The translations under genes and the position numbers were made by a program. Below, one piece after another: positions 3,703 through 34,760 of a DNA stretch of 37,861 bases; positions within the stretch are counted from its first letter, which is position 1, and each line of letters opens with the position of its first letter. The notes under the pieces were generated by a model. It was not told the origin of the DNA, made no database searches, and saw nothing but the letters and a program-made list of their open reading frames with translations. Source of the DNA: Thermoleophilia bacterium (lineage in GTDB: Bacteria > Actinomycetota > Thermoleophilia > BMS3ABIN01); contig JAUSDE010000008.1 in assembly GCA_030650885.1 (NCBI GenBank), positions 1-37,861 of the forward strand, read 5' to 3'.

Positions 3703-4935
3703 TTAACCCTTGAGTTCGGTGAAAAGCTTTAGATAATCGCGGAGCAGGCGAGGCGTCAGATAGTTGGCCCTGACGTGTTCCTTACCGGCGCGCCCCATGA
3801 TCTTTGCTTCCTTGGGATTATCCAGTACCCACATGCACTTCTCGGCACACTGCTCGACTGAGTTCACAAGAAAACCTGTCTCGCCGTCGTCGATCTGCTG
3901 GGGGATGCCGCCGACGTTGCCGCCGATAGTCGGCTTGGCTTTCCACAGGCCCTCACTGATCGTGAGGCCGAAGCCCTCCCGCGTGGATTTCTGGATGATG
4001 ACATCAGCGCGCGACTGGAAGGCGTTTACTTCCAGGTTGCCGACGTTGTTCAGGTTGGAGAGGATGAGCACATCGCTGTCGTCTCCGGCATGTTCCACAG
4101 TGCTGGTGAAAAAGGTCCAGCCTTCGGGGTCATCGGTGGCCATTGAACCGACCAGCGCCAGCCTCACCGAGGCGAACTCCTTCTTGACGATCTTGTAGGC
4201 GTCGATGACGCCGAGCGGATCCTTCCAGGGATCGAAACGGGAGATCTGTAACATCAGCGGCCGGTCCGGCTCGACGCCGAACTGGCTGACCACGTAGTCG
4301 GCATCCTCCGGCGACAGGGCCATGTTCTTGGTGGAAAGCGGGTCGATGGCCGGGGCGATCACCTTGATGGGGATGTCCAGGCCCTTGAAAACATAATCCT
4401 GGAGGGTGAACAGCGCCGTGTCATACTCAGAGATATACGGCAAAAGATAATCGGCTACTTCCTGGTTAGGTGTAGATGTGTCGATGTGGCAGCGCCAGAT
4501 CCACTTTGCTCCCAGGTCGCCGGCGTAATGCCGGAGCAGCAGCGGCTGCGGGTCATGAACAACAACGAAGTCGAAGCCTTTGCCCAGCGATTCGGCGGTG
4601 AGCCGGTTGTTCCTCTCGTAGATCTCCTTCTGGGTGGCATCGAGGCCGAGAGAATTCCCCTGGAGAGCGTTATGGGTTATCTTGGTGCCCTCGTAGAACT
4701 CCTGCTCCGCCATGATAATACGCCACTCAGCGTCCAGCCCGATGTCGCGCATCAGCGGGACCAGGGTATAAAGGATCTCGGCGACACCGCCACCGAAGGC
4801 AGTGGCGTTCACGTGGAGGACCCTGGCGCCCTTGAGCCCTTCCGCCAGTTCCCGGATCTCCTCGATCAGCGGGCGGACGACGACGCTCTGGTAATCCGCC
4901 AGAAATTTGTGGCCTACATGGACTTCCTGCAGCAA
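3703..4935 (-). CDS. GT4-family glycosyltransferase, TreT-like trehalose synthase (tentative)
   Basis: HVNATAFGGGVAEILYTLVPL, VVVHDPQPLLL, WIWRCHIDTSTPN and the C-terminal GT-B motif STREGFGLTISEGLWKAKP...GGIP resemble trehalose glycosyltransferring synthases as I recall them. TTG start 4935 with AGGAGG 7 nt upstream. Confidence 0.6.
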   Translation of the reverse strand: MLQEVHVGHKFLADYQSVVVRPLIEEIRELAEGLKGARVLHVNATAFGGGVAEILYTLVPLMRDIGLDAEWRIIMAEQEFYEGTKITHNALQGNSLGLDATQKEIYERNNRLTAESLGKGFDFVVVHDPQPLLLRHYAGDLGAKWIWRCHIDTSTPNQEVADYLLPYISEYDTALFTLQDYVFKGLDIPIKVIAPAIDPLSTKNMALSPEDADYVVSQFGVEPDRPLMLQISRFDPWKDPLGVIDAYKIVKKEFASVRLALVGSMATDDPEGWTFFTSTVEHAGDDSDVLILSNLNNVGNLEVNAFQSRADVIIQKSTREGFGLTISEGLWKAKPTIGGNVGGIPQQIDDGETGFLVNSVEQCAEKCMWVLDNPKEAKIMGRAGKEHVRANYLTPRLLRDYLKLFTELKG

Positions 4936-9795: not shown

Positions 9796-11556
9796 CTAAC
9801 TGCCTTTGTTGTCTTCCGCCGGCAGCGTGACCGTGAAGACGGTGCCATCGCCGGTTGAGTCTACCTCGATAGTACCGTTCATCAACCTGACCAGCTCGTG
9901 GGCTATGGACAGCCCCAGGCCGGTGCCGCGAATGCGCCCGGCGGCCTTGCCTCGATAGAAGCGCTCGAAGACGCGGGGCAGCTCCTCACCGGGGATGCCG
10001 GGTCCGTGGTCGGCCACGGTGAAGCTGACCGAATTGCCGTTACGGCTTCCCGAGACCTGGATGGCGCCGCCGGTCGGCGAGTACTTGAGCGCGTTGTCGA
10101 TCAGGATGCGGACCAGCTGCGCGGTCCGGTCAGGGTCGCATACGGCAACCAGGCTGCCCGGTACGGCACTCGTGTCTATCGCGGAATCATGCGATGCGGC
10201 ATACGCGGCAAATTCCCTGGTAACCATGTCAAATATATCTTTTAGCTCAACCCTGCTGGTGCGCACGTCCATGGCACCGGAATCCATCTGTGACAGGTCG
10301 AGCAGCTTCCGTGCCAGGTCGGCCAGCCGGTCTACCTGCTCGCGCATGGTGGCTACGAACTCGTCGCGGGTCTTGTCGTCAAGGTCTTCCTCCTGCAGCA
10401 GCTCCAGGAAACCGCCCAGCGAGAACAGCGGCGTCTTCAGTTCGTGAGAGGCGTTGGCGATGAAGTCGCGGCGGGACTTCTCCAGCTTCACTTCCTGGCT
10501 GACGTCACGGATCACCAGCAGCGAGGCCAGCTCTGCCTGGTCAGACAGGTAAGAACTGTGCACAAGCAGCGCCTTGTCATCAGGCAGGTTGAAGATGTCC
10601 TCGCGCTGAGGACTTTCCTGGCTCATGGATTTCCAGAGATCATAAATCTCGATCGGCAGACACTCGTCGAGCGTGCAGGGCGCCGATATCTCCTGGCCGA
10701 GCAGATGCTCGGCGGCAGGATTCGCCACGATGATGCTGCCGCCTGAATCTATGCCGATTACGCCCTCGTCCAGATCGTCTAGTAGCACCTTCGCCCTGCG
10801 CTTCTCGTCATCGACCTGCTGGAATGCGGCTCCCAGCCGGTCGCCCATGTCGTTGAAGGTGATGGCAAGCTGGCCCAGCTCATCCTGGGAAGTGACCGGC
10901 ACCTTGATGTTGAAATCGCCCTCTGCGATCCGCGCCGCGCCCGACTCGATCCGGCGGATGCGCCGGGAGAGGATATAGGAGACCAGATAAATGACCGCCA
11001 GCGCGATGACCAGAGCCGACGAAGCCGCGATCACCATCAGCTGCTGTACAAGCGTCACTGCTGATTCGACTTCGTCCATGGAAGAAGAGACGATAATCGC
11101 AGCGACTATGCGGTTGTCCCGGGAGACCGGCACGGCGGCCATGGCATAGCTCCTGCCGCCGATGGAGGTCACGCTGGTCACCAGGTCGCCGGTGGATATT
11201 GCCGCGTTGGCGACGTCATAGTCGGCCGGTTCGAAACCCTGTCCCATCAGTGAGTCGGAGAGCAGGCTTCCCGATGAGTCGATAGCCAGGATGCGCGAGT
11301 CGGAACGCTCGGCATACTGCTGGGTGAGCAGATCCAGATAGATGCGCGAGGCTCCCTGGTTCAGAGCCTGCAGATAACTTTCGGAATATAGCGTGGCATA
11401 ATCGCCGAGATTGCCGAGCTTCTGGTCGGTGAGGCGGCTCTGCAGCTGGGGAACCACTACGGCGAAGATGATACCGATAGCAAAAACGAACACAGAGAAG
11501 AATACCAGGCTCTGCTTGATGGCGAGGCTGAAACGGATTTTATTTCTTAATGGCAT
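9796..11556 (-). CDS. Sensor histidine kinase (two TM segments, HAMP, PAS-like, HisKA, HATPase_c)
   Basis: TM1 VFFSVFVFAIGIIFAVVV. TM2 plus HAMP (IRRIESGAARIAEGDFNIKVPVTSQDELGQLAITFNDM). H-box ASHELKTPLFSL. N-box NALKYSP. G1 DHGPGIP. G2 GTGLGLSIA. Confidence 0.9.
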   Translation of the reverse strand: MPLRNKIRFSLAIKQSLVFFSVFVFAIGIIFAVVVPQLQSRLTDQKLGNLGDYATLYSESYLQALNQGASRIYLDLLTQQYAERSDSRILAIDSSGSLLSDSLMGQGFEPADYDVANAAISTGDLVTSVTSIGGRSYAMAAVPVSRDNRIVAAIIVSSSMDEVESAVTLVQQLMVIAASSALVIALAVIYLVSYILSRRIRRIESGAARIAEGDFNIKVPVTSQDELGQLAITFNDMGDRLGAAFQQVDDEKRRAKVLLDDLDEGVIGIDSGGSIIVANPAAEHLLGQEISAPCTLDECLPIEIYDLWKSMSQESPQREDIFNLPDDKALLVHSSYLSDQAELASLLVIRDVSQEVKLEKSRRDFIANASHELKTPLFSLGGFLELLQEEDLDDKTRDEFVATMREQVDRLADLARKLLDLSQMDSGAMDVRTSRVELKDIFDMVTREFAAYAASHDSAIDTSAVPGSLVAVCDPDRTAQLVRILIDNALKYSPTGGAIQVSGSRNGNSVSFTVADHGPGIPGEELPRVFERFYRGKAAGRIRGTGLGLSIAHELVRLMNGTIEVDSTGDGTVFTVTLPAEDNKGS

Positions 11557-11599: not shown

Positions 11600-12307
11600 T
11601 TACATGTCCCTGAATTTGTACCCGGCGCCGCGGACAGTAAAAATATATTCCGGATCATGGGGGTCGGGTTCGATTTTTTCCCGCAGGTGCCGGATATGCA
11701 CGTCCACCGTGCGCGGATCCCTGTACTCAGCGTCCCCCCAGACCAGCTGCAGCAGCGAATCACGCCCGAACACGCGTCCGGGATGGCTGACAAGCGTCTT
11801 CAGCAGCTCGAATTCCTTGTAGGTGAGGTCTACCTTCGTGCCGGACACATAGACATTCCGTTTGAGGAAGTCGATGCGCAGGCTTTCTATCTCCAGGACT
11901 TCGCGGGCGATCTCACTGGGTTGCTGGATCATCTGTGACCGGCGCAGCTGAGCCTTGACGCGGCTACGGAACTCGCGGATGCTGAACGGTTTGGTGATGT
12001 AATCGTCGGCGCCGATCTCGAGGCCGAGCACCTTGTCGAACTCGTCTGACTTGGCTGTCAGCATGATGATGGGCACAGTGCTCTCGGCTCGTATCAGGCG
12101 GCAGACGTCAGTTCCGTCCATTCCAGGCAGCATGATATCCAGCACCACGAGGTCGAAAGGCTGCTCGCGGAACTTCTCCAGTGCGGTCTCGCCGTCCATC
12201 GCCTGGACGATCTCGTAGCCCTCCTTCTCCATGGGGAAGGTAAGCAGTTTCTGTATCGCTTCCTCGTCATCGACCAGCAGGATGCGAGGCGCCTTGTTCT
12301 CGTTCAT
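11600..12307 (-). CDS. OmpR/PhoB-family response regulator (MprA/WalR-like)
   Basis: Receiver motifs [27 protein letters not shown] and ITKPF. C-terminal winged helix [12 protein letters not shown]...[12 protein letters not shown]. The ATGA overlap with the upstream radical SAM gene is at 12304-12307. Confidence 0.9.
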
Positions 12308-12924
12308 GCCCTGACCTCCTCGGATTCGGGCGTCAACAGTTGCCGTACCCTGAATTCGGCACCCATCTTCTCGGCTATACTTCGACAGGCTTCGATATCG
12401 ACCTCCGGCAGGTCAACTACTGACAACGTCACTTTCAATCCTTCCGCCAGACAATCCTCGGCAAATCTGAGCACGGCCCGGTAAGCTTTACTGAACATCG
12501 GCCTGCATAACTGATTGTAGACTTCGGAATTGTGAGCTACAAGGCTGACCGACACGGAGCCGATGCCCGCCACCGCCAGCTCATGGGCGACATCGCGCTC
12601 CGGGTGCAGAAGCTGTCCGTGGCCGTTTGTGTCCAGTCTTGAGGATATGCGCCTCAGCTTCAGCCACTCGGCGACCTCCAGGATAACTTCCAGCCTCATG
12701 GTCGGCTCACCGAATCCCACGAAGACGACTTCTCCGGCGGGGCCTTCCAGGAACTCCAGCTCCAGTTCATGCAGTATGTCTTCCGCCGACGGCTCACTGT
12801 CCAGCTTCAGGTTGTATCCGCAAAAGGTGTCGGTGAATTTAGCCAGACAGAAAACGCAGTCTGAGGAACAGCGGTTGGTGATGTTCAGATATATGTTGCC
12901 TTTGGCCCGATAGGCAATGGTCAT
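12304..12924 (-). CDS. Small radical SAM protein (resembles the TatD-associated radical SAM family)
   Basis: YLNITNRCSSDCVFC (CxxxCxxC near the N-terminus), about 200 aa, GFGEPT motif. ATGA overlaps at both ends (12921-12924 and 12304-12307). Confidence 0.7.
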   Translation of the reverse strand: MTIAYRAKGNIYLNITNRCSSDCVFCLAKFTDTFCGYNLKLDSEPSAEDILHELELEFLEGPAGEVVFVGFGEPTMRLEVILEVAEWLKLRRISSRLDTNGHGQLLHPERDVAHELAVAGIGSVSVSLVAHNSEVYNQLCRPMFSKAYRAVLRFAEDCLAEGLKVTLSVVDLPEVDIEACRSIAEKMGAEFRVRQLLTPESEEVRA

Positions 12925-13652
12925 GTGAGCTCCCGTTCGCGAAGCCAGTGCAATCCCTCGTAGGCTTTCTGGCGAGGCATCTCAAAGGTGATCGTGATTA
13001 TCTGGGGCAGTTCCCGCAGAGCGCGGAGGATCGGCGCAAAATCGATACGGCCCTCGCCTAGTGGCAGATGCAGGTCCTCGTGATAGGTATCTCCGCCGAT
13101 GTTGTCGTGGATATGCACGTGGCCGATGCGGTCCGGATAAGCTTTGATGAAACCCAGTGACTTGTTCTCGTCACCAAGCAGCTCGCTGTGGCCGATATCG
13201 ACGGTCAGCATGACGCCCGGGTGGGCATCCAGCACGTCTTTCATGTCAACCGGATCTTCGCTGGTATTCTCGCAGGATATGCTGGCGCCGTATTCTCCCG
13301 CCAGGGCCGCGAGAACGCCTATCTCCCTGAGCTTGAGGCTTATCTTCTCGGGCGTATTGGACCTCGGGGCCAGTATCGGATGTATCGTGATCGTCCGCGG
13401 ACGAAAAAGCTCCGCGTAACTCACCGCTTCGCCGATGCGCCGCATGCCGTCATCGTTGTCGACCCTGAGGTCGGGAGCATGGGCGACAAAAAACATGCCT
13501 GCCCGTTTAGCTGCCTTCAGCATGGCTTTTTCCTCGCGCCTGATCTTGTCGATCTCGTTGAGGTTGAGATCAGCGAAATCGAATCCGTGGGCCGCGAGGA
13601 ATGTGATGCCTTCGAGGCCGGCGGCCTGGCCGCCAAATCTGAGGTTGCTCAT
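12921..13652 (-). CDS. Sugar phosphate isomerase/epimerase (xylose-isomerase-like TIM barrel, AP_endonuc_2 fold)
   Basis: CENTSE, TVDIGHSEL and HVHIHDN...EDLHLPLGEGRIDFAPILRAL are typical metal-ligand contexts of this fold. Confidence 0.7.
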   Translation of the reverse strand: MSNLRFGGQAAGLEGITFLAAHGFDFADLNLNEIDKIRREEKAMLKAAKRAGMFFVAHAPDLRVDNDDGMRRIGEAVSYAELFRPRTITIHPILAPRSNTPEKISLKLREIGVLAALAGEYGASISCENTSEDPVDMKDVLDAHPGVMLTVDIGHSELLGDENKSLGFIKAYPDRIGHVHIHDNIGGDTYHEDLHLPLGEGRIDFAPILRALRELPQIITITFEMPRQKAYEGLHWLRERELT

Positions 13653-15082: not shown

Positions 15083-16027
15083 ATGGGCAAAAAAATCCAG
15101 ACGGACTGGCCGGAAATCACCTCCCGCGACTGGCAGATCGACATCCCCTGGCTGATTGTTTCCCTGGTCATGCTGCTGGCTCTCTACATGGGCCATGCCT
15201 GCGGCTGGCTGATAATCCTCAAGCGCTTCAATTATCCGGTTCCTTTCCTGCCGGGAATCTATGTCTGGTGCAAGTCGTTGCTGGCGCGGTATATTCCGGG
15301 TAATGTGATGATGGTTGTCGGCCGCGTGGTAATGATCGAGCCATACGGCGTCCCAAAACGCATTTCGCTCACCAGTGTTGCCTATGAACAGGCGCTGCTC
15401 CTGTCGTCGGCGGCTACCGTGATCGCGGTCGCATTACCTTTCTGGCCCAAGCTGCAGAATTTCTCGACCTGGATCTGGCTGGTTCTGGTCGTACCGCCAA
15501 TGGCCGTCATTCTGCTTCATCCAACAGTGCTTAATCGGATAGGCAACTACCTGCTGCGCAAGGTCAAGCGGGAGGCCATCGAGGAGTTCCTGCCGTTCAG
15601 GGACATCGTCGCCATCTTCTTTTACTACTGTTTCTTCTGGATCGTCTCCGGCATGGGCCTTTTCGCCATGGCGCAGACTGTCACATTTGTCAGCTGGTCG
15701 AGTTTCCCCATCTTCATCGCCAGCACTCCACTGGCCTGGTTGACTTCAGTGCTTTTCTTTATCTCTCCCAGCGGGCTGGGTGTACGGGAAGGCGTTTACG
15801 CCTTTACGCTCGACTTTGCTTTTCCAGACAGCAACGGGGATCCCTCGCTGGCGATCGCTTCGGCCTTCGCCATCCTTACCCGCTTCTGGCAGACGCTCGT
15901 GGAGATCGCAGTCGTCGCTGTAGTGATGGCACTGGTCAAGATCCGGCATATTAAGATCAAGGCCGCCACAGCTGAAGAAATGAAGGACGATGAAGATATC
16001 CATGGCAGGGATAATCCGACGATCTGA
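15083..16027 (+). CDS. UPF0104 / lysylphosphatidylglycerol-synthase-TM-like (flippase-like) membrane protein
   Basis: Multi-TM protein with the family-typical RW/ILKRF segment after TM2 and PSGLGVREG near the C-terminus. The frame stays open upstream to 14954 and encodes a further TM helix. The real start is probably upstream (see findings). Confidence 0.75.
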   Translation: MGKKIQTDWPEITSRDWQIDIPWLIVSLVMLLALYMGHACGWLIILKRFNYPVPFLPGIYVWCKSLLARYIPGNVMMVVGRVVMIEPYGVPKRISLTSVAYEQALLLSSAATVIAVALPFWPKLQNFSTWIWLVLVVPPMAVILLHPTVLNRIGNYLLRKVKREAIEEFLPFRDIVAIFFYYCFFWIVSGMGLFAMAQTVTFVSWSSFPIFIASTPLAWLTSVLFFISPSGLGVREGVYAFTLDFAFPDSNGDPSLAIASAFAILTRFWQTLVEIAVVAVVMALVKIRHIKIKAATAEEMKDDEDIHGRDNPTI

Positions 16028-16822: not shown

Positions 16823-18463
16823 TTAAAACCAGTGCCGTAGCCACCACTTCTCGAACAGTACCTTGCCCCAATGCCAGGGGTGCATCGGCGGATAGAGCCG
16901 CACGGCCGGTTCGGGCTCGGCATAGAAGTTGCCACTGGCGATACCAGCTTTCCCGTCTCCCAGCTCCAGCCAGCAGTATCCTTTGCCGTTGAATGTCGCT
17001 GTCGCTGGTTTTCCTTCTATTTCGGCGAGGATACGCTCGGCGACGACCCCGGCCTCGTAATGGGCGAAAACCCCCGCCATGGGAAGGTTCTTGCCGTTGG
17101 CCAGCCTGATACTGTTGACGTCGCCGATGGCGTATACGCCTTCATGCTCCGTCGCCATCGTGTGGGGGTCTGTATGCATCCATCCGGACGAACCGATAAG
17201 CCCGGAGCTGCGCACCACCTCAGGCGCCCGGTGCGGCGGAATGGCAAGAAGCAGGTCTACTTTCTGCGGTTCTCCGCCAGACTTGATGATGGTTCGCTCG
17301 CTGGGATCCATCTTCTCGAAAGTGAACAGCGGATGGTACTGGATGTTGCGCTTGTGCAACACCTTTGTTATAGCTTCCCCCATGGCCGTCCCGGTAACGG
17401 GCATGGGCTGGTGCTCGGGGGTATATATGTGGATCTCCGACCTGTCACGCACGCCCTTTTTGCGCAGGAAGGACTCCACCAGGAGCGCTGCCTCATAAGG
17501 CGCCGCGGGACACTTGAAAGGCATGTCGGTGACCAGCACACCCACTGTGCCGCCGGAAAACGAGTCCAGGGCAGCGTTGATCTTCGCCGTACCCTCCAGG
17601 TCATATAGATTGAGGGCCATCTCGTCAAAACCCTCCACCTCGTCCGGCCTGAGCTGGGCGCCCAGAGAAACGATCAGAAAGTCAAAATCGATTGCCTGCG
17701 ACTTTGTTCTCACCTGCCTGGAGGCGGCATCTATTTCCACGACCTCCTCATTGATAAACTCGACGCCCTTCCGGGTCAGGTCTGAAAGCGGCCGCTGGAT
17801 CTGGTCTGCACGCCGCTGCCCCACGGCATGCCAGAGCAGCGATGACTGGAAAAGGTGATTTGGCGAGCGGTCTATAAGAATGATGCGATCCCTGCCGGAT
17901 AGCTTGCGGCGCAAGTGATGGGCGGCCACCAGCCCGCCGGCACCGCCGCCGAGGATAACGATGTTCGCTCCCAACCCCCGGCCGGCGCGCTGTGGCACCG
18001 CACGGACAGCAGCCTCAGGCTCAGCCTGCGCGTCGGTCGGCTCCTGGAAGAGCTTCTCGACGACAGCGGCAAAGCCCTCCTCTTCAAACTCGCTCTCCCA
18101 CAAGACGACCTTGCCGTCAGACCCTACCAGCAAGGTGTAAGGCACCCAGCCGTTGCTAAGCTTTTTGAATATGGTCCCGTCTTCATCCGGGATCACGTCG
18201 AACGGCAGCTCGTACTCTTCCTTCCACTCCTGGCAGCTTTCGCTGGTTTCAAAGGGCCCCACATATACAACTGAAAGCCCCTTGGACGAGAAGCGCTCAT
18301 ACAGGCGCTTTATGGCGGGAGCCTCCCGCCGGCAGCCCTGTCACTGCCCTTTCCAGAATACGATGAGCAGGCCTCCTGTAGTCGAGGGAGGCAGGCCCAG
18401 TTCGTCAAGCGGAACCAGGGTCCCTTCAGCGACGCCCTTGTTGCCCTCGTCGATAACTTTCAT
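16823..18463 (-). CDS. Thioredoxin-fold (TlpA/redoxin-like, UxxC) domain fused to an FAD-dependent sulfide:quinone-oxidoreductase-like flavoprotein. Candidate selenoprotein with in-frame TGA at 18341-18343
   Basis: ATG 18463 (GGAG 7 nt upstream) opens MKVIDEGNKGVAEGTLVPLDELGLPPSTTGGLLIVFWKGQ-[TGA]-QGCRREAPAIKRLYERFSSKGLSVVYV-GPFETSESCQEW..., continuous with track ORF 16823..18262. Total length is 1641 nt, or 547 codons including stop. The SQR-like part has NIVILGGGAGGLVAAH (FAD fold), FKCPAAPYEAAL, GVYAIGD and KGYCWLELG. Confidence 0.6.
18301..18340 (-). promoter_or_regulatory. Candidate bacterial SECIS-like hairpin immediately 3' of the in-frame UGA
   Basis: mRNA: UGA CAGGGC UGCC GGCGGG-AGGCU-CCCGCC AUAAA GCgCCUG. 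The upper stem is 6-7 bp (18314-18330), starts 10 nt after the UGA and has a G-containing apical loop. A lower stem CAGG(G)C/GC(G)CCUG is possible. Confidence 0.45.
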
Positions 18464-18466
18464 TAG

Positions 18467-18817
18467 CTATCTCCTTTTTTCGCTCAGGCTGGCCACAAAA
18501 TCCTGTTCTACCTGCAGGCCCTCGAGCAAGACTTCCTTCATCGTGTCCATGGCCTTGAAGATTTTCGGGTTGGAAACGGTATAGAACATATTGGTGCCAT
18601 CGCGGCGTGATATAACCATCCCTTTCTGGCGCAGGAACGAAAGGTGCTGCGATACATTGGTCCGCGAGATCTCTGCCAGCGCGGCGATCTCACCTACTGA
18701 TCTTTCGCCGTCGCGCAACAGGTTGAGAATCTCGATCCGCTTGGCGCTTGTCAGCACCTTGCAGATCTCAGCGTGCATTTCATACAGTTTCCGGTTGAGA
18801 TCGTCAGTCATATCCAT
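18467..18817 (-). CDS. ArsR/SmtB-family transcriptional regulator
   Basis: Winged HTH KRIEILNLLRDGERSVGEIAALAEISRTNVSQHLSFLRQKGMVISRRDGTNMFYTV. Its TAG stop (18467-18469) is 3 nt from the downstream ATG (18463). Confidence 0.85.
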   Translation of the reverse strand: MDMTDDLNRKLYEMHAEICKVLTSAKRIEILNLLRDGERSVGEIAALAEISRTNVSQHLSFLRQKGMVISRRDGTNMFYTVSNPKIFKAMDTMKEVLLEGLQVEQDFVASLSEKRR

Positions 18818-20049: not shown

Positions 20050-21048
20050 ATGCAAAAATCAGCCTTGATCACAGGCATAACAGGGCAGGACGGCTCTTAC
20101 CTGGCCGAGTTCCTGCTCGAAAAGGGGTACGAAGTATTCGGTATGGTCCGCCGTTCCAGCACGGAAAATTTTGAACGCATCGCCCAGATCCGCGATAAGG
20201 TGACACTGATCCAGGCGGACCTGCTGGACCAGATGTCACTGATCGCAGCCATCAGCGAGTCACAGCCGCACGAGATATATAATCTCGCGGCACAGAGCTT
20301 CGTTCCCACTTCGTGGACCAAGCCCGTGCTGACAGCGCAGTTCACTGCTCTCGGAGTTACCCGGATGCTGGAAGCCATGCGCCACACCAAGAGCGACGCC
20401 CGCTTCTACCAGGCGTCGTCATCGGAGATGTTCGGCAAGGTGGCGGAGGTGCCGCAGACGGAGAACACGCCGTTCCACCCACGCAGCCCTTATGGCGTCG
20501 CCAAGGTGTACGGCCATTTCATCACGGTCAACTACCGCGAGAGCTACGACCTCTATGCCTGCTCGGGTATCCTCTTCAACCATGAATCGCCACGGCGCGG
20601 CTATGAGTTCGTGACCCGCAAGGTCACCGATGCCGTCGCCCGAATCAAGCTGGGCGTGGCCAGCGAGATCCGCATGGGCACCCTCGACGCGAAGCGCGAC
20701 TGGGGATATGCCGAGGATTATGTGCGGATGATGTGGATGATGCTGCAGCAGGATGAGCCGGACGATTATGTCATCTGCTCGGGCGAGACCCATTCAGTCG
20801 AGGAACTGGTGCAAATAGCCTTCGATCACGTGGGTCTGGACTGGAAAGAGTATGTCAAGATCGACCAGCGCTTCGTGCGCCCGGCGGAAGTCGACCTGCT
20901 CATCGGCGATGCGACCAAGGCGAAGGAAAAACTGGGCTGGGTTCCAAAAGTCACCTTCTCGGAGATGATCAAGATGATGATCGAAAACGACCTCAAGATG
21001 GTGCAGGAAGAGATCGACGCGGGGATCCGGGCCAAGAACAGGCACTGA
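20050..21048 (+). CDS. gmd: GDP-mannose 4,6-dehydratase
   Basis: [74 protein letters not shown]. Confidence 0.92.
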
Positions 21049-32863: not shown

Positions 32864-33778
32864 ATGACAGTTAAAAGTTCAATACGAATTATAGGCACGT
32901 TCCTGGCTGCGGGGCTCATGATCGGCCTCGCATTCGCAGCCTTCGGCTGCGGCAACCAGAACACCTCAGCCGGTGGCGCAGGCGGCTCCAAGGGCGGCGC
33001 CATCCAGGTCAAGGGCTCCGACACCATGGTGAACCTCGCCCAGATGTGGGCTGAGGATTATATGAAGGAAAATCCGCAGGTCAATATCGCCGTCACGGGC
33101 GGTGGCTCAGGCACCGGCATAACCGCCATCATCAATGGCACCACCGACGTCGCCGATTCTTCCCGCGAGATGAAACAGAAGGAAAAAGACGACGCGGCCG
33201 CCAAGGGCGTCGAAGTCGTCGAGAACAAGGTTGCGCTGGACGGCATCGCAGTTGTTGTTAACAGCTCCAACGGTGTCGGCGAGCTCAGTGTCGACCAGCT
33301 GGCTGATATCTTCTCCGGCAAGATCACCGACTGGCAGGAAGTCGGCGGCAGCCCGGGCCAGATCGTCATCCTCTCCCGCGAGAGCAACTCGGGAACGCAC
33401 GTCTTCTTCAAGGAGCATATCCTCAATAAGGGCAAGAGCGATGGCAAGGTCGAATACGCGTCCAGCGCACTGCTGCTTCCCTCATCGCAGGCGATCGTCG
33501 ACGAGGTCAAGCAGAACCCGAAAGGGATCGGCTATGTCGGACTGGGTTATGTTGACGACAGCATCAAGGCCGTGAAGGTGAAGAAAGATGCAACCTCCAC
33601 AGCGGTCACGCCTACTGTAGCTACCGTCCAGGACGGCAGCTACCCCGTCTCCCGCCCGCTTTACATGTACTCCAAGCAGGGTGCATCGCAGACGGTGCAG
33701 GATTACCTTGCCTGGATCAAAGGCCCGGAAGGCCAGAAGGTCGTCGAGCAGCTCGAGTTCGTACCACTTACTAAATAA
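32864..33778 (+). CDS. pstS: Phosphate ABC transporter substrate-binding lipoprotein PstS
   Basis: Signal peptide with an AAFGC lipobox-like Cys. GSDTMVNLAQ, TGGGSGTG and SRESNSGT are PstS-family motifs. SD AAAGGAG. Confidence 0.9.
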   Translation: MTVKSSIRIIGTFLAAGLMIGLAFAAFGCGNQNTSAGGAGGSKGGAIQVKGSDTMVNLAQMWAEDYMKENPQVNIAVTGGGSGTGITAIINGTTDVADSSREMKQKEKDDAAAKGVEVVENKVALDGIAVVVNSSNGVGELSVDQLADIFSGKITDWQEVGGSPGQIVILSRESNSGTHVFFKEHILNKGKSDGKVEYASSALLLPSSQAIVDEVKQNPKGIGYVGLGYVDDSIKAVKVKKDATSTAVTPTVATVQDGSYPVSRPLYMYSKQGASQTVQDYLAWIKGPEGQKVVEQLEFVPLTK

Positions 33779-33801
33779 CGCACACGGTAGGAATCGCATG
33801 T

Positions 33802-33837
33802 GAAGCACCCCGGACCGCAAGTCGTCCGGGGTGCTTC
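33802..33837 (+). other. 14-bp perfect hairpin between pstS and pstC
   Basis: GAAGCACCCCGGAC-cgcaagtc-GTCCGGGGTGCTTC, starting 24 nt after the pstS stop. No U-tract follows. Confidence 0.7.
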
Positions 33838-33851
33838 GACATATAAACAAA

Positions 33852-34760
33852 ATGAGCGTGACGGGGAAGATGAGAACCGCCCAGAAAATCAAGGAAAGCA
33901 TAATCGGCAAGGTCATCCTCGCCTGTGGAGTCCTCTCCATAGCTGTAGTTGTCCTTATTTTTGCCTTCCTGACTCGCGATGCCCTGTCGCTGTTCAGCAC
34001 TTACTCGCCTATCGATTTCATCACCGGCCAGAACTGGTATCCCATCTCGGAACCTCCGGTTTTCGGCATCCTGCCGCTGGTACTGGGCTCGATGCTGGTG
34101 ACAGTGATCGCCATCGTCATCGCCATCCCGCTGGGCATCGGCACGGCCATCTACATAGCCGAGATCGCCCCGGGCTGGCTCAAGGAGATCCTCAAACCCC
34201 TGATGGAGATCGTGGCGGCTATTCCTTCGGTTGTGCTGGCTTTCATCGGGCTCACCCTTCTCGCACCTTTTATACAGGATCTGCTCAATCTCAATACCGG
34301 GCTGACAGCGCTGACCGGCGGCATAATGCTGGCATTCATGGCCCTGCCGACCATCGTCTCCATAGCTGAAGACGCCATCAACGCCGTGCCCCGTTCGTAT
34401 CGCGAGGGCTCGCTGGCCATGGGAGCGACTCGCTGGCAGACCACCGGTCGCGTTGTAGTCCCGGCGGCGATGTCCGGCATTTCCGCTTCTGTCATGCTGG
34501 GAATCGGCCGGGCCATCGGCGAGACCATGGTAGTGCTGATGGTCACCGGTAACGCCGCCGTTATGCCGACCTCAGTAGATTCGGCCCTGAAACCGGTCCG
34601 AACACTCACGGGAACGATAGCCCAGGAGATGGGCGAGACTGTCTTCGGCAGCTCCCATTATTTCGCCCTCTTCGCCGTAGGCCTGGTGCTGTTCGTCATA
34701 ACCTTCGCCGTCAACTGGATCGCCGACCTTATCCTCTATCGCTACCGCGAAAGCGAATGA
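33852..34760 (+). CDS. pstC: Phosphate ABC transporter permease PstC
   Basis: Six TM segments and an EAA-like loop (SIAEDAINAVPRSYREGSLAMGATRWQT). GTG 33831 lies inside the hairpin, so ATG 33852 is preferred. Confidence 0.88.
   Translation: MSVTGKMRTAQKIKESIIGKVILACGVLSIAVVVLIFAFLTRDALSLFSTYSPIDFITGQNWYPISEPPVFGILPLVLGSMLVTVIAIVIAIPLGIGTAIYIAEIAPGWLKEILKPLMEIVAAIPSVVLAFIGLTLLAPFIQDLLNLNTGLTALTGGIMLAFMALPTIVSIAEDAINAVPRSYREGSLAMGATRWQTTGRVVVPAAMSGISASVMLGIGRAIGETMVVLMVTGNAAVMPTSVDSALKPVRTLTGTIAQEMGETVFGSSHYFALFAVGLVLFVITFAVNWIADLILYRYRESE

What the first reader, a model, noticed from the sequence alone, without database searches (positions are those of the whole stretch)
16823..18463. In-frame TGA at the first Cys position of a thioredoxin-fold CxxC motif, fused to an SQR-like flavoprotein: candidate UxxC selenoprotein
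Seen directly: on the minus strand an ATG at 18463 (GGAG SD 7 nt upstream) opens a frame reading MKVIDEGNKGVAEGTLVPLDELGLPPSTTGGLLIVFWKGQ, then TGA (18343-18341), then QGCRREAPAIKRLYERFSSKGLSVVYV. This runs without any other stop into the 479-aa ORF listed at 16823..18262, whose GTG 'start' is simply codon 68 of the longer frame.

The stretch around the TGA follows the TlpA/ResA/redoxin pattern hhhhFW-x-x-W-C-x-x-C-x-x-E-x-P-x-h-x-x-hY. The downstream part (SKGLSVVYVG...ELPFDVIPDEDGTIFKKL...VPYTLLVGSDGKVV) completes the fold. The stop codon therefore falls exactly on the catalytic N-terminal Cys of CxxC, giving U-Q-G-C.

Established knowledge: many bacterial selenoproteins are thioredoxin-fold proteins with UxxC or CxxU, and Sec aligns with Cys in homologues. 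The rest of the protein is a sulfide:quinone-oxidoreductase-like FAD enzyme (GGGAGG, FKCPAAPYE, GYCWLELG).

Inference: a Sec-containing redoxin domain fused to an SQR-like enzyme is not a selenoprotein family I know of. It could couple selenol/persulfide chemistry to quinone or FAD redox. TGA is a normal stop elsewhere in the window (e.g. 16025-16027, 34758-34760, 21046-21048), so this would be local recoding, not a reassigned code.
Basis: partly seen in the sequence, partly recalled or inferred. Interest (0 to 1): 0.85.

Follow-up and report, generated by a model that had tools for sequence, protein, structure and literature searches.

The report
Selenocysteine redoxin fused to sulfide:quinone reductase
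The "stop codon" is very probably a selenocysteine codon at the active site of a thioredoxin-like domain fused to a sulfide-oxidising membrane flavoenzyme; this two-domain selenoprotein occurs in at least five bacterial phyla, databases cut it short everywhere, and I did not find it in current selenoprotein catalogues.

Summary
On the minus strand, ATG 18463 opens a 546-codon frame that contains one in-frame TGA (18343-18341) and ends at 16823.

The interpretation as a UxxC selenoprotein is strongly supported:
- All 17 full-length homologous loci, from Thermoleophilia, Gaiellales, Acidobacteria, Gemmatimonadota, Desulfobacterales and Myxococcales, have TGA at the same codon.
- About 65 more database entries are the 40-aa leader, called as a tiny ORF ending where the leader ends (DNA not checked).
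- Both sides of the TGA evolve as coding sequence.
- A 17-nt hairpin starts 10 nt after the UGA. It is kept in all 18 sequences, shows an A-U/G-C compensatory switch, always has G as the first loop base, and has suppressed synonymous change. It fits the published bacterial SECIS model.
- The Sec aligns with the nucleophilic Cys of the ResA CxxC motif.
- The C-terminal domain is a type III-like sulfide:quinone oxidoreductase with both catalytic cysteines.

Only one Cys variant was found, on a frameshifted 575-nt contig. Public annotations are all truncated. The fusion is not in the 2026 selenoproteome catalogue, and no NCBIfam 20.0 model reached its cutoff.

Two things are unresolved. The Sec machinery of this genome could not be examined. 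The mechanism is inferred, not shown: the tethered Sec redoxin probably takes sulfane sulfur or electrons from the SQR site.

The parts
16823..18463 (-). Complete selenoprotein gene: 546 codons plus stop. It encodes a Sec-redoxin domain, a linker and a type III-like SQR flavoprotein.
   Evidence: Single open frame apart from one TGA. Full-length homologues at 52-78% identity in 17 loci.
18341..18343 (-). In-frame UGA at codon 41, read as selenocysteine. It is the first position of the UxxC motif (U-Q-G-C).
   Evidence: TGA at the same codon in 17 of 17 full-length loci and in L081. Aligns with the N-terminal Cys of the ResA CxxC motif.
18314..18330 (-). SECIS-type hairpin GGCGGGA-GGC-UCCCGCC: a 7-bp stem and a 3-nt loop, starting 10 nt after the UGA.
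   Evidence: 99% of cells are paired over 18 sequences. Pair 17-27 is A-U in 10 and G-C in 8, with no mismatch. The first loop base is always G. Synonymous variation is 0.18 here against 0.50 elsewhere in the gene. Meets the bSECIS constraints quoted in PMC13188914.
18344..18463 (-). 40-codon N-terminal leader that includes strand beta-1 of the redoxin fold (LLIVFWK).
   Evidence: Conserved at the protein level in all homologues. Differences by codon position are 0.28/0.19/0.46, the same pattern as downstream of the TGA. About 65 database ORFs consist of just this leader, ending where it ends.
18080..18373 (-). TlpA/ResA-like redoxin core (residues 31-128) with UxxC and the conserved GWVP loop. 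No signal peptide or TM segment.
   Evidence: Pfam AhpC-TSA, Redoxin and Thioredoxin_8. PDB ResA structures 4nmu and 1st9, E=1e-10. No hydrophobic N-terminus.
17969..18040 (-). Pro/Ala/Glu-rich interdomain linker (residues 142-165).
   Evidence: The least conserved region (0.46), with indels; linker length varies by about 22 residues among homologues.
16826..17968 (-). Type III-like sulfide:quinone oxidoreductase domain (residues 166-546). It has the GGGAGG FAD-binding motif, catalytic C318 (FKCPAAPYE) and C497 (GYCWLELG), and a Trp-rich C-terminal amphipathic tail.
   Evidence: Pfam Pyr_redox_2 and FCSD_central. NCBIfam NF049943 scores 251 bits, below its cutoff of 525. PDB human SQOR, A. ambivalens SQR and FCSD; both catalytic Cys align. 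Both Cys are kept in all 80 loci.
18467..18817 (-). ArsR/SmtB-family regulator immediately upstream, 3 nt from the selenoprotein start. Probably in the same operon.
   Evidence: NCBIfam HTH_metalloreg at 78 bits against a cutoff of 55, with a weak BigR-like hit. An ArsR gene lies directly upstream in L001, L003, L004 and L017 as well; in L004 and L017 it is fused to a rhodanese domain.

Best explanation
The gene encodes one 546-residue selenoprotein. UGA at codon 41 is recoded to selenocysteine by SelB and Sec-tRNA(Sec), directed by the 17-nt hairpin that starts 10 nt downstream. The product has four parts: a cytoplasmic TlpA/ResA-like redoxin domain with a U-x-x-C active site, a flexible linker, a type III-like sulfide:quinone oxidoreductase, and a C-terminal tail that probably binds the membrane.

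Most likely mechanism (inferred, not shown):
1. The SQR domain oxidises H2S at the C318/C497/FAD site and passes the electrons to quinone.
2. The tethered selenolate attacks the persulfide or polysulfide that builds up on the catalytic cysteines and takes the sulfane sulfur as a Se-S(n) adduct.
3. The adduct is resolved by Cys44, or the sulfur is handed on to carriers such as DsrE-like or rhodanese proteins, or to small thiols.

In this model the Sec domain is a built-in, highly reactive sulfane-sulfur acceptor that clears the SQR active site. Expression is probably controlled by the adjacent ArsR-family regulator.
For: Shown:
- TGA is at the same codon in 17 of 17 full-length loci from at least five phyla, and in L081.
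- The coding signature is the same upstream and downstream of the TGA.
- No conserved restart codon follows the TGA. Gene callers start the truncated products at different positions.
- The hairpin is kept in 18 of 18 sequences. Pair 17-27 is A-U in 10 and G-C in 8 with no mismatches. The first loop base is always G, and 17 nt separate the UGA from the apical loop. No shuffle reached the observed pairing, and the slid-partner controls gave 35-61% paired against 99%.
- Synonymous change is suppressed in the hairpin codons (0.18 against 0.50). Arg45 is always CGG.
- These features match the bSECIS model: a 3-9 nt loop, a 4-16 bp stem, G in the first two loop positions, 16-37 nt spacing, and MFE of -7.5 kcal/mol or lower (PMC13188914; energies).
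- Sec41 aligns with the nucleophilic Cys of ResA.
- Both SQR catalytic cysteines align with human SQOR and are universal across the 80 loci.
- The linker is variable and rich in indels. There is no signal peptide or TM segment. The Trp-rich C-terminal tail is conserved.

Context consistent with sulfur handling:
- ArsR, or an ArsR-rhodanese fusion, lies directly upstream in 5 loci.
- A DsrE-like gene lies directly upstream in L002 and L005, and TauE is upstream in L005.
- In Methylacidiphilum, an H2S-induced type III SQR is in an operon with TusA and DsrE2 (PMC10205796).
Against: - The Sec machinery (selA, selB, selC, selD) was not seen. There is no tRNA-Sec in the window or in the 17 fused loci. 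There are no SelA, SelB or SelD homologues in their flanks. The rest of the genome could not be searched.
- There is no biochemical evidence for any step of the mechanism.
- A Trx-type UxxC would normally reduce a persulfide back to H2S. On its own that would make sulfide oxidation futile, so the acceptor model needs a downstream partner.
- The neighbourhood is only partly conserved. The Gaiellales loci show no recurrent sulfur genes.
- The hairpin lies within a conserved peptide, CR[R/Q]E[A/S]PA, so part of its conservation is due to protein constraint.
Confidence: 0.55

Rival explanations
1. The protein is the same selenoprotein, but electrons flow the other way round between domains, as in QSOX (quiescin sulfhydryl oxidase) or DsbA/DsbB. 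The oxidised Se-S redoxin domain oxidises an external dithiol, or captures HS- itself. It is then re-oxidised by the C318-C497 disulfide, FAD and quinone. The enzyme would be a selenol-thiol:quinone oxidoreductase in which the Sec domain is the primary substrate site.
For: - The architecture is a Trx-fold CxxC-type domain tethered by a flexible linker to a flavin/disulfide oxidase module. This is the logic of QSOX (my own knowledge).
- Electron flow from a dithiol to quinone is thermodynamically downhill (established redox potentials; inference).
- The quinone-facing C-terminal tail is conserved.
Against: - No candidate dithiol substrate is conserved in the neighbourhood.
- The flavoprotein keeps every feature of a sulfide-oxidising SQR, and standalone paralogues manage without the domain.
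Confidence: 0.2
2. The protein is the same selenoprotein acting as a reductase. Reducing equivalents pass from quinol or another donor through FAD and C318/C497 to the Se-S redoxin. The redoxin then reduces polysulfide/S0, peroxides, or selenium or arsenic compounds. This would be a membrane-linked analogue of thioredoxin reductase-thioredoxin fusions or of CoADR-rhodanese persulfide reductases.
For: - The flavoprotein is distantly similar to CoA-disulfide and persulfide reductases, including CoADR-rhodanese fusions (3nt6, 8a56).
- Neighbours in some loci suggest metalloid handling: ArsR regulators, an ArsP permease, SAM methyltransferases and an MMPL exporter.
- selD lies next to standalone relatives in L073, L025 and L075.
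Against: - No NAD(P)H-binding domain beyond the SQR fold was detected.
- Reducing a selenosulfide from menaquinol is thermodynamically uphill (inference from standard potentials).
- The best matches are SQR and FCSD, which work in the oxidative direction.
Confidence: 0.12
3. This is not a selenoprotein. The TGA would be a sequencing error, a pseudogene lesion, or a true stop that separates a 40-codon upstream ORF from an SQR gene with an internal start. A variant of this idea is that the UGA is read through as Trp or Cys without Sec.
For: - Every public annotation treats the TGA as a stop.
- The Sec machinery was not observed.
- One relative has TGC at the site.
Against: - The same TGA is present in 18 independent assemblies checked at the DNA level, across at least five phyla. 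About 65 further database ORFs are just the leader and end where it ends.
- A stop there would split the redoxin fold between strand beta-1 and its active-site helix.
- Codons 42-67 are conserved in frame but lack a conserved start codon.
- The SECIS-type hairpin shows covariation and synonymous constraint.
- TGA works as a normal stop elsewhere in the window.
- The single TGC variant lies on a frameshifted 575-nt contig.
Confidence: 0.04

Closest known systems
Sec-containing Prx-like / TlpA-like / redoxin thiol:disulfide oxidoreductases (UxxC), as listed in the prokaryotic selenoproteome catalogue (PMC13188914, Table 1)
   Same: Thioredoxin fold. Sec occupies the N-terminal position of the CxxC motif. 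A bacterial SECIS hairpin lies just downstream within the coding sequence. The Pfam domains are PF00578 and PF08534.
   Different: The catalogued families are described as single-domain proteins. This one is fused to a ~380-aa flavoprotein, is cytoplasmic (no signal peptide or anchor), and has almost no Cys-form orthologues.
Type III sulfide:quinone oxidoreductase (Caldivirga maquilingensis; Methylacidiphilum fumariolicum MFUM_v2_0219)
   Same: Same flavoprotein family: the FAD-binding motif, two catalytic cysteines and C-terminal amphipathic helices. It is associated with DsrE-type sulfur carriers.
   Different: No described type III SQR carries an N-terminal redoxin domain or a Sec outside the flavoprotein. 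Standalone paralogues are at most about 51% identical. One sits next to the fusion in L002.
[quoted passage not shown]
   Same: A selenoprotein built on the same SQR family, and the best NCBIfam hit (251 bits).
   Different: The score is far below the cutoff of 525. The Sec of that family lies inside the flavoprotein (HxxU motif) and it has no redoxin domain. In the protein studied here the flavoprotein contains only Cys and the Sec is in the fused domain.
Redox fusions with a tethered Trx-fold or rhodanese domain: QSOX (Trx + Erv/FAD), TrxR-Trx fusions, CoADR-rhodanese persulfide reductase (Npsr, PDB 3nt6/3ntd)
   Same: The design principle is shared: a mobile Cys-based carrier domain linked to a flavin/disulfide module (for the CoADR-RHD hits; the rest is from my own knowledge).
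   Different: The flavoprotein families and electron partners are different, and none of these uses Sec in the tethered domain. This is a resemblance in logic only, not homology of the whole protein.

Membership tests
Bacterial selenoprotein (SelB/SECIS-dependent UGA recoding) | In-frame UGA conserved in orthologues, with coding sequence on both sides | tested here: met
   TGA in 17 of 17 full-length loci and in L081. The codon-position pattern is the same upstream and downstream.
Bacterial selenoprotein (SelB/SECIS-dependent UGA recoding) | bSECIS stem-loop: 3-9 nt loop, 4-16 bp stem, G in the first two loop positions, 16-37 nt from the UGA to the loop, MFE of -7.5 or lower | tested here: met
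   7-bp stem, a 3-nt loop beginning with an invariant G, and 17-nt spacing. The consensus energy is -13 kcal/mol. Covariation and synonymous constraint are present.
Bacterial selenoprotein (SelB/SECIS-dependent UGA recoding) | Sec aligns with a catalytic Cys in homologues | tested here: met
   It aligns with the first Cys of the ResA CxxC motif. One TGC variant exists within the family. No other Cys-form fusion was found among 1.84 billion representatives.
Bacterial selenoprotein (SelB/SECIS-dependent UGA recoding) | The genome encodes selA, selB, selC (tRNA-Sec) and selD | not testable with these tools
   None is present in the 37.9-kb window or in the flanks of the 17 fused loci.
Bacterial selenoprotein (SelB/SECIS-dependent UGA recoding) | Selenium demonstrated in the protein | not testable with these tools
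   Needs 75Se labelling or mass spectrometry.
TlpA/ResA-like redoxin (thioredoxin fold) | Domain model above threshold, with the CxxC motif at the N-terminus of helix 1 and the conserved Pro loop | tested here: met
   AhpC-TSA 53.8 bits (cutoff 26) and Redoxin 38.9 bits (cutoff 26.6). The ResA alignment covers FW..C..C..E.P and the GWVP loop.
TlpA/ResA-like redoxin (thioredoxin fold) | Extracytoplasmic location (signal peptide or membrane anchor), typical of TlpA, ResA and CcmG | tested here: not met
   The N-terminus is hydrophilic. The only hydrophobic peak is the Rossmann GxGxxG segment. It therefore has a TlpA-like fold but is not a periplasmic cytochrome-maturation reductase.
Type III sulfide:quinone oxidoreductase | FAD-binding fold of the SQR/FCSD family with the two redox-active cysteines | tested here: met
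   Pyr_redox_2 and FCSD_central. C318 and C497 align with the catalytic Cys of human SQOR.
Type III sulfide:quinone oxidoreductase | Placement in the type III clade, by fingerprints or phylogeny | tested here: inconclusive
   The only SQR-specific NCBIfam model is the Sec subtype of type III. It is the best hit but scores below its cutoff (251 against 525). No phylogeny with reference types I-VI was built.
Type III sulfide:quinone oxidoreductase | Sulfide-dependent quinone reduction | not testable with these tools
   Needs an enzyme assay.
NF049943 type III SQR selenoprotein subtype (HxxU) | Score above the curated cutoff, and Sec within the flavoprotein | tested here: not met
   251 bits against a cutoff of 525. 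The flavoprotein part has no in-frame TGA.

The most novel reading that the evidence does not exclude
This would be a Sec-only family: apart from one doubtful fragment, no orthologue has Cys in place of Sec. In it, a tethered selenolate is an integral catalytic partner of a sulfide:quinone oxidoreductase, so that sulfide oxidation or sulfane-sulfur export depends on selenium. This form of the enzyme would be widespread in subsurface and soil Thermoleophilia, Acidobacteria, Gemmatimonadota and Deltaproteobacteria. A bolder variant is that the enzyme handles selenide or Se(0) as well as sulfide. That would connect with the selD genes found beside standalone relatives of the flavoprotein.
Probability: 0.3. 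Interest if true: 0.72.

Novelty: new variant of a known kind. Interest (0 to 1): 0.62.

Why it matters
- Annotation. At least 120 protein clusters (at 90% identity) in public databases are truncated "FAD-dependent oxidoreductase" or "sulfide:quinone oxidoreductase" calls of this gene. The window's own GenBank protein, MDO8735533.1 (391 aa), is one of them. Recognising the Sec codon restores a whole catalytic domain.
- Selenoprotein biology. The family adds a two-domain architecture, largely from Actinomycetota MAG lineages, that the 2026 catalogue does not list. It has almost no Cys counterparts. That is unusual for thiol-oxidoreductase selenoproteins, which the review says mostly arose from widespread Cys homologues.
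- Sulfur biology. Type III SQRs are described as the SQR type about which least is known (PMC10205796). A built-in Sec acceptor domain gives a testable idea for how sulfane sulfur leaves the active site. It also suggests a link between selenium availability and sulfide detoxification in groundwater and soil bacteria.

Tried and rejected
- Rfam at gathering thresholds and ARAGORN on the window gave no RNA family hit and no tRNA, including no tRNA-Sec.
- ARAGORN on the 17 fused loci found only ordinary tRNAs.
- tblastn with E. coli SelA, SelB and SelD against all 1.09 Mb of fetched DNA found no SelA or SelB. SelD appeared only next to standalone SQR relatives (L073, L025, L075), not next to the fusions.
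- Idea rejected: the Sec domain replaces a third active-site Cys (the PPHKC motif seen in the L002, L051, L052 and L069 paralogues). Position 413 is Ala in most standalone forms too: 52 of the 81 aligned homologous genes, fused and standalone, have Ala, and only 6 have Cys.
- A search for Cys-form fusions found none. The N-terminal profile search found only P0122, which is TGC on a frameshifted 575-nt contig. P0121, translated with W, is TGA in the DNA. The exhaustive search with residues 42-165 found no ~540-aa Cys form. P0199 is frameshift noise. P0245 and P0269 are unrelated secreted multi-TlpA proteins.
An alignment that included the short leader ORFs was discarded because MAFFT misplaced them.
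- A scan of the window for other ORF pairs joined by a TGA found 51, none convincing. The only stronger hairpin, just after the TGA at 33801, follows the stop of the upstream gene and is probably a terminator.
- In-frame stops in relatives led nowhere. The second SQR-like gene in L006 has TAA, so it is a pseudogene or an error. L054 has a TGA at a non-catalytic position.
- Literature. The GOS paper on selenoprotein fusions, deep-Sep and the 2016 ISME survey do not mention this fusion. The Haft & Tolstoy 2025 paper is not held in the library. A search for Thermoleophilia together with selenocysteine gave nothing relevant.
Full report
OBSERVATION

On the minus strand an ATG at 18463 opens a frame of 40 sense codons. 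GGAG lies 7 nt upstream of it, inside the end of the preceding ArsR gene. After the 40 codons comes TGA at 18343-18341, and the frame then continues without interruption to TAA at 16825-16823. The 479-aa ORF in the mechanical list (16823..18262) starts at GTG, which is codon 68 of this frame.

With Cys placed at codon 41, Pfam finds AhpC-TSA/Redoxin/Thioredoxin_8 over residues 31-128. It finds Pyr_redox_2 plus FCSD_central over residues 167-458.

TGA is an ordinary stop in this window: 12 of 30 large ORFs end in TGA. ORF pairs joined by one TGA are common by chance, with 51 in this window. The bare observation is therefore not significant on its own. The comparative evidence is what decides the matter.

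THE TGA IS CONSERVED AND BOTH SIDES ARE CODING

A protein search returned 889 relatives. The best 120 are all 426-504 aa long and cover only 72-92% of the query. Their N-termini begin just after the TGA position, at different and non-conserved start codons; examples are "M-TCRQEAP", "L-GCRQESP", "VRKLYERF" and "VVYVGPF". This is the pattern expected when gene callers truncate a selenoprotein.

A scan of one genome per species returned 17 loci that match residues 1-546. They come from Thermoleophilia, Gaiellales/Gaiellaceae, Desulfobacterales, Acidobacteria, Longimicrobiales and Myxococcales. Every one has an in-frame stop at the same codon, and in every case it is TGA. In all of them the TGA is preceded by a conserved leader, MKVxxxxxKGVxxGxxVxLxELGLPxxxxxGLLIVFWKxx.

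Mean pairwise differences by codon position are 0.28/0.19/0.46 in the 12 codons before the TGA and 0.27/0.23/0.48 in the 60 codons after it. The same reading frame is therefore under purifying selection on both sides.

A profile of the first 82 residues found 69 database proteins. About 65 of them are just the leader, called as a small ORF that ends where the leader ends (one search shows examples; their DNA was not checked). One, P0121, had been translated with Trp at the site, but its DNA has TGA. One, P0122, has TGC (Cys). It lies on a 575-nt contig that has a frameshift soon after and then diverges.

An exhaustive HMMER search of 1.84 billion representatives with the exact post-TGA redoxin segment gave 17 hits at E of 1e-10 or better. 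All of them begin at or after the TGA. No ~540-aa Cys-form fusion exists among the close relatives.

RECODING SIGNAL

Ten nucleotides after the UGA lies the hairpin GGCGGGA-GGC-UCCCGCC. Across 18 sequences the 7-bp stem is 99% paired. Pair 17-27 is A-U in 10 sequences and G-C in 8, with no mismatch. This couples a non-synonymous change in codon 46 (CGG/CAG, Arg/Gln) to a synonymous change in Pro49 (CCC/CCU). Two further pairs tolerate only G-U. The first loop base is always G, and the loops are GGC, GUC, GUG or GCG.

No shuffle reached the observed pairing. When the 3' partners were slid by 1 to 3 columns, pairing fell to 35-61%.

The G-C state occurs both in the window's Thermoleophilia group and in some Gaiellaceae, while close relatives of each (for example L002) have A-U. 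The switch therefore happened at least twice; this is an inference from the identities.

Synonymous-codon variation in hairpin codons 45-50 is 0.18, against 0.50 for 285 similarly conserved codons elsewhere. Arg45 is always CGG, although Arg has six codons.

These features satisfy the published bSECIS constraints: a 3-9 nt loop, a 4-16 bp stem, G in the first two loop positions, the N1-G-[G/U]-N-N2 loop pattern, 16-37 nt between the UGA and the loop, and MFE of -7.5 or lower (PMC13188914). From my own knowledge, the geometry also recalls the minimal E. coli fdhF SECIS, a 17-nt stem-loop placed 11 nt after the UGA.

WHAT THE PROTEIN IS

Sec41 aligns with the N-terminal, nucleophilic Cys of the ResA CxxC motif: FWGTWCEPC in ResA against FWKGQUQGC here. 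The E-x-P and GWVP-loop positions are conserved as well.

There is no signal peptide or TM helix, so the redoxin domain is cytoplasmic, unlike ResA and TlpA.

Residues 142-165 form a Pro/Ala/Glu-rich linker. It is the least conserved region (0.46) and its length varies by about 22 residues.

The C-terminal domain matches human SQOR, Acidianus SQR and flavocytochrome c sulfide dehydrogenase. C318 (FKCPAAPYE) and C497 (GYCWLELG) align with the two catalytic cysteines. Both are kept in all 80 related loci.

The best NCBIfam model is NF049943, "type III SQR, selenoprotein subtype". The score is 251 bits against a cutoff of 525. That family has its Sec inside the flavoprotein (HxxU; PMC13188914 and PMC12013277), so this protein is a relative and not a member.

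The Trp-rich C-terminal tail is the best conserved segment (0.80). This fits the monotopic membrane binding known for type III SQRs (cited in PMC10205796 and PMC13047784).

CONTEXT

An ArsR/SmtB regulator ends 3 nt before the start codon. An ArsR gene lies directly upstream in L001, L003, L004 and L017 as well. In L004 and L017 it is fused to a rhodanese domain.

A DsrE/DsrF-like gene lies directly upstream of the fusion in L002 and L005. L005 also has a TauE/SafE exporter. Other neighbours are an ArsP permease (L003), a DsbD-thioredoxin protein and OsmC (L006), and SAM methyltransferases (L002, L007, L012). The Gaiellales loci show no recurrent neighbours.

In L002 the fusion is followed by a standalone 383-aa paralogue. 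The Thermoleophilia loci L051, L052 and L069 are syntenic with the window but carry only that standalone form.

In Methylacidiphilum, an H2S-induced type III SQR shares an operon with TusA and DsrE2 (PMC10205796).

MECHANISM

Shown: there is a conserved UGA with a SECIS-type hairpin, at the catalytic position of a redoxin domain, and that domain is tethered to an SQR that looks catalytically intact.

Inferred: SelB-dependent Sec insertion. Also inferred: the selenolate acts as an intramolecular acceptor for the sulfane sulfur generated on C318/C497, resolving it with Cys44 or passing it on to DsrE, rhodanese or small thiols.

Two alternatives keep the same protein but reverse the roles of the domains:
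- A QSOX-like thiol:quinone oxidase, in which the Se-S domain is the substrate site.
- A reductase that sends electrons outward through the redoxin.

The pseudogene, sequencing-error, uORF and plain read-through explanations are essentially excluded by the comparative data.

NOVELTY

Sec-containing Prx-like, TlpA-like and redoxin UxxC proteins are well known, and so are type III SQRs and an HxxU Sec-SQR. The fusion does not appear in the following:
- the 2026 catalogue;
- the GOS paper's list of selenoprotein fusions;
- the deep-Sep paper;
- any NCBIfam 20.0 model at or above its cutoff.

All public annotations are truncated. I rate it a new variant of a known kind: a new selenoprotein architecture, widespread, and with essentially no orthologues that use Cys instead of Sec.

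LIMITS

- The Sec machinery of the source genome could not be examined.
- No phylogeny against reference SQR types was built.
- The mechanism rests on inference.

Noticed in passing
L073:8110-9123 (selD) with the SQR-like gene at 10001-11086; L025:6-446; L075:4-168 with the SQR-like gene at 825-1913: selD homologues lie within 1-2 kb of standalone relatives of this flavoprotein in two Chloroflexota-lineage MAGs (L073 Caldilineales, L075 Chloroflexi). In the Nitrospirae locus L025 a partial selD lies at the locus edge, about 9.5 kb from the SQR-like gene. NCBIfam classifies these flavoproteins like the one in the window (type III-like, 210-223 bits), not as the known 'N-terminal to SelD' family TIGR03169. 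The family may have a link to selenium metabolism.
   Followed up: partly
L002:10001-11641 and L002:11796-12947: In the Thermoleophilia MAG DeMMO3_11 the Sec fusion is immediately followed by a standalone 383-aa paralogue with a PPHKC motif. Upstream lie three ArsR genes, a DnaJ-domain protein, an MMPL-family transporter, a SAM methyltransferase and a DsrE-like gene. Compared with the window, this is an expanded version of the locus.
   Followed up: partly
L051, L052, L069 (for example L069:9303-11940): Three Thermoleophilia MAGs are syntenic with the window. They share the GDP-mannose-dehydratase-like gene, an ArsR 72-75% identical to the window's, a Zn-metallopeptidase and a membrane protein. 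They carry only the standalone SQR paralogue, 46% identical, where the window has the Sec fusion. This implies gene replacement or differential loss at one locus.
   Followed up: partly
L015:9600-11257 (Vicinamibacterales chromosome OZ244656.1): The flavoprotein belongs to the fused clade (60% identity) and keeps only the tail of the redoxin domain (YDEDGYTRVIASLY). No N-terminal domain is present upstream in any frame. This looks like a secondary loss of the Sec domain.
   Followed up: partly
L004:914-1588 and L017:440-1126: The regulator directly upstream of the fusion is an ArsR-rhodanese fusion of 225-229 aa. Its rhodanese part resembles the rhodanese-related (seleno)protein models NF041203 and NF045694.
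   Followed up: partly
L006:4053-5258: A second, type-I-like SQR gene (motif CLGPAYEF) lies downstream of the fusion in a Desulfobacterales MAG. It has an in-frame TAA at 4239, so it is a pseudogene or an assembly error, not a Sec codon.
   Followed up: yes
L054:10967: A standalone homologue in a Deltaproteobacteria MAG has an in-frame TGA at a non-catalytic position (VAYNI*AKING) with only a weak downstream fold. It is probably a lesion or an error.
   Followed up: partly
window 33804-33848 (+): This is the most stable 45-nt fold found after any in-frame TGA in the window (-25.2 kcal/mol). It lies just after the stop of ORF 32864-33778 and before ORF 33831-34760, so it is most likely an intrinsic terminator or an intergenic structure rather than a SECIS.
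   Followed up: no
window 12304-12924 (-) and 12921-13652 (-): A TatD-associated radical SAM protein (TIGR04038, 195 bits) overlaps by 4 nt with a CbiR-like phosphodiesterase or sugar-phosphate-isomerase-like gene. This is unrelated to the finding.
   Followed up: no
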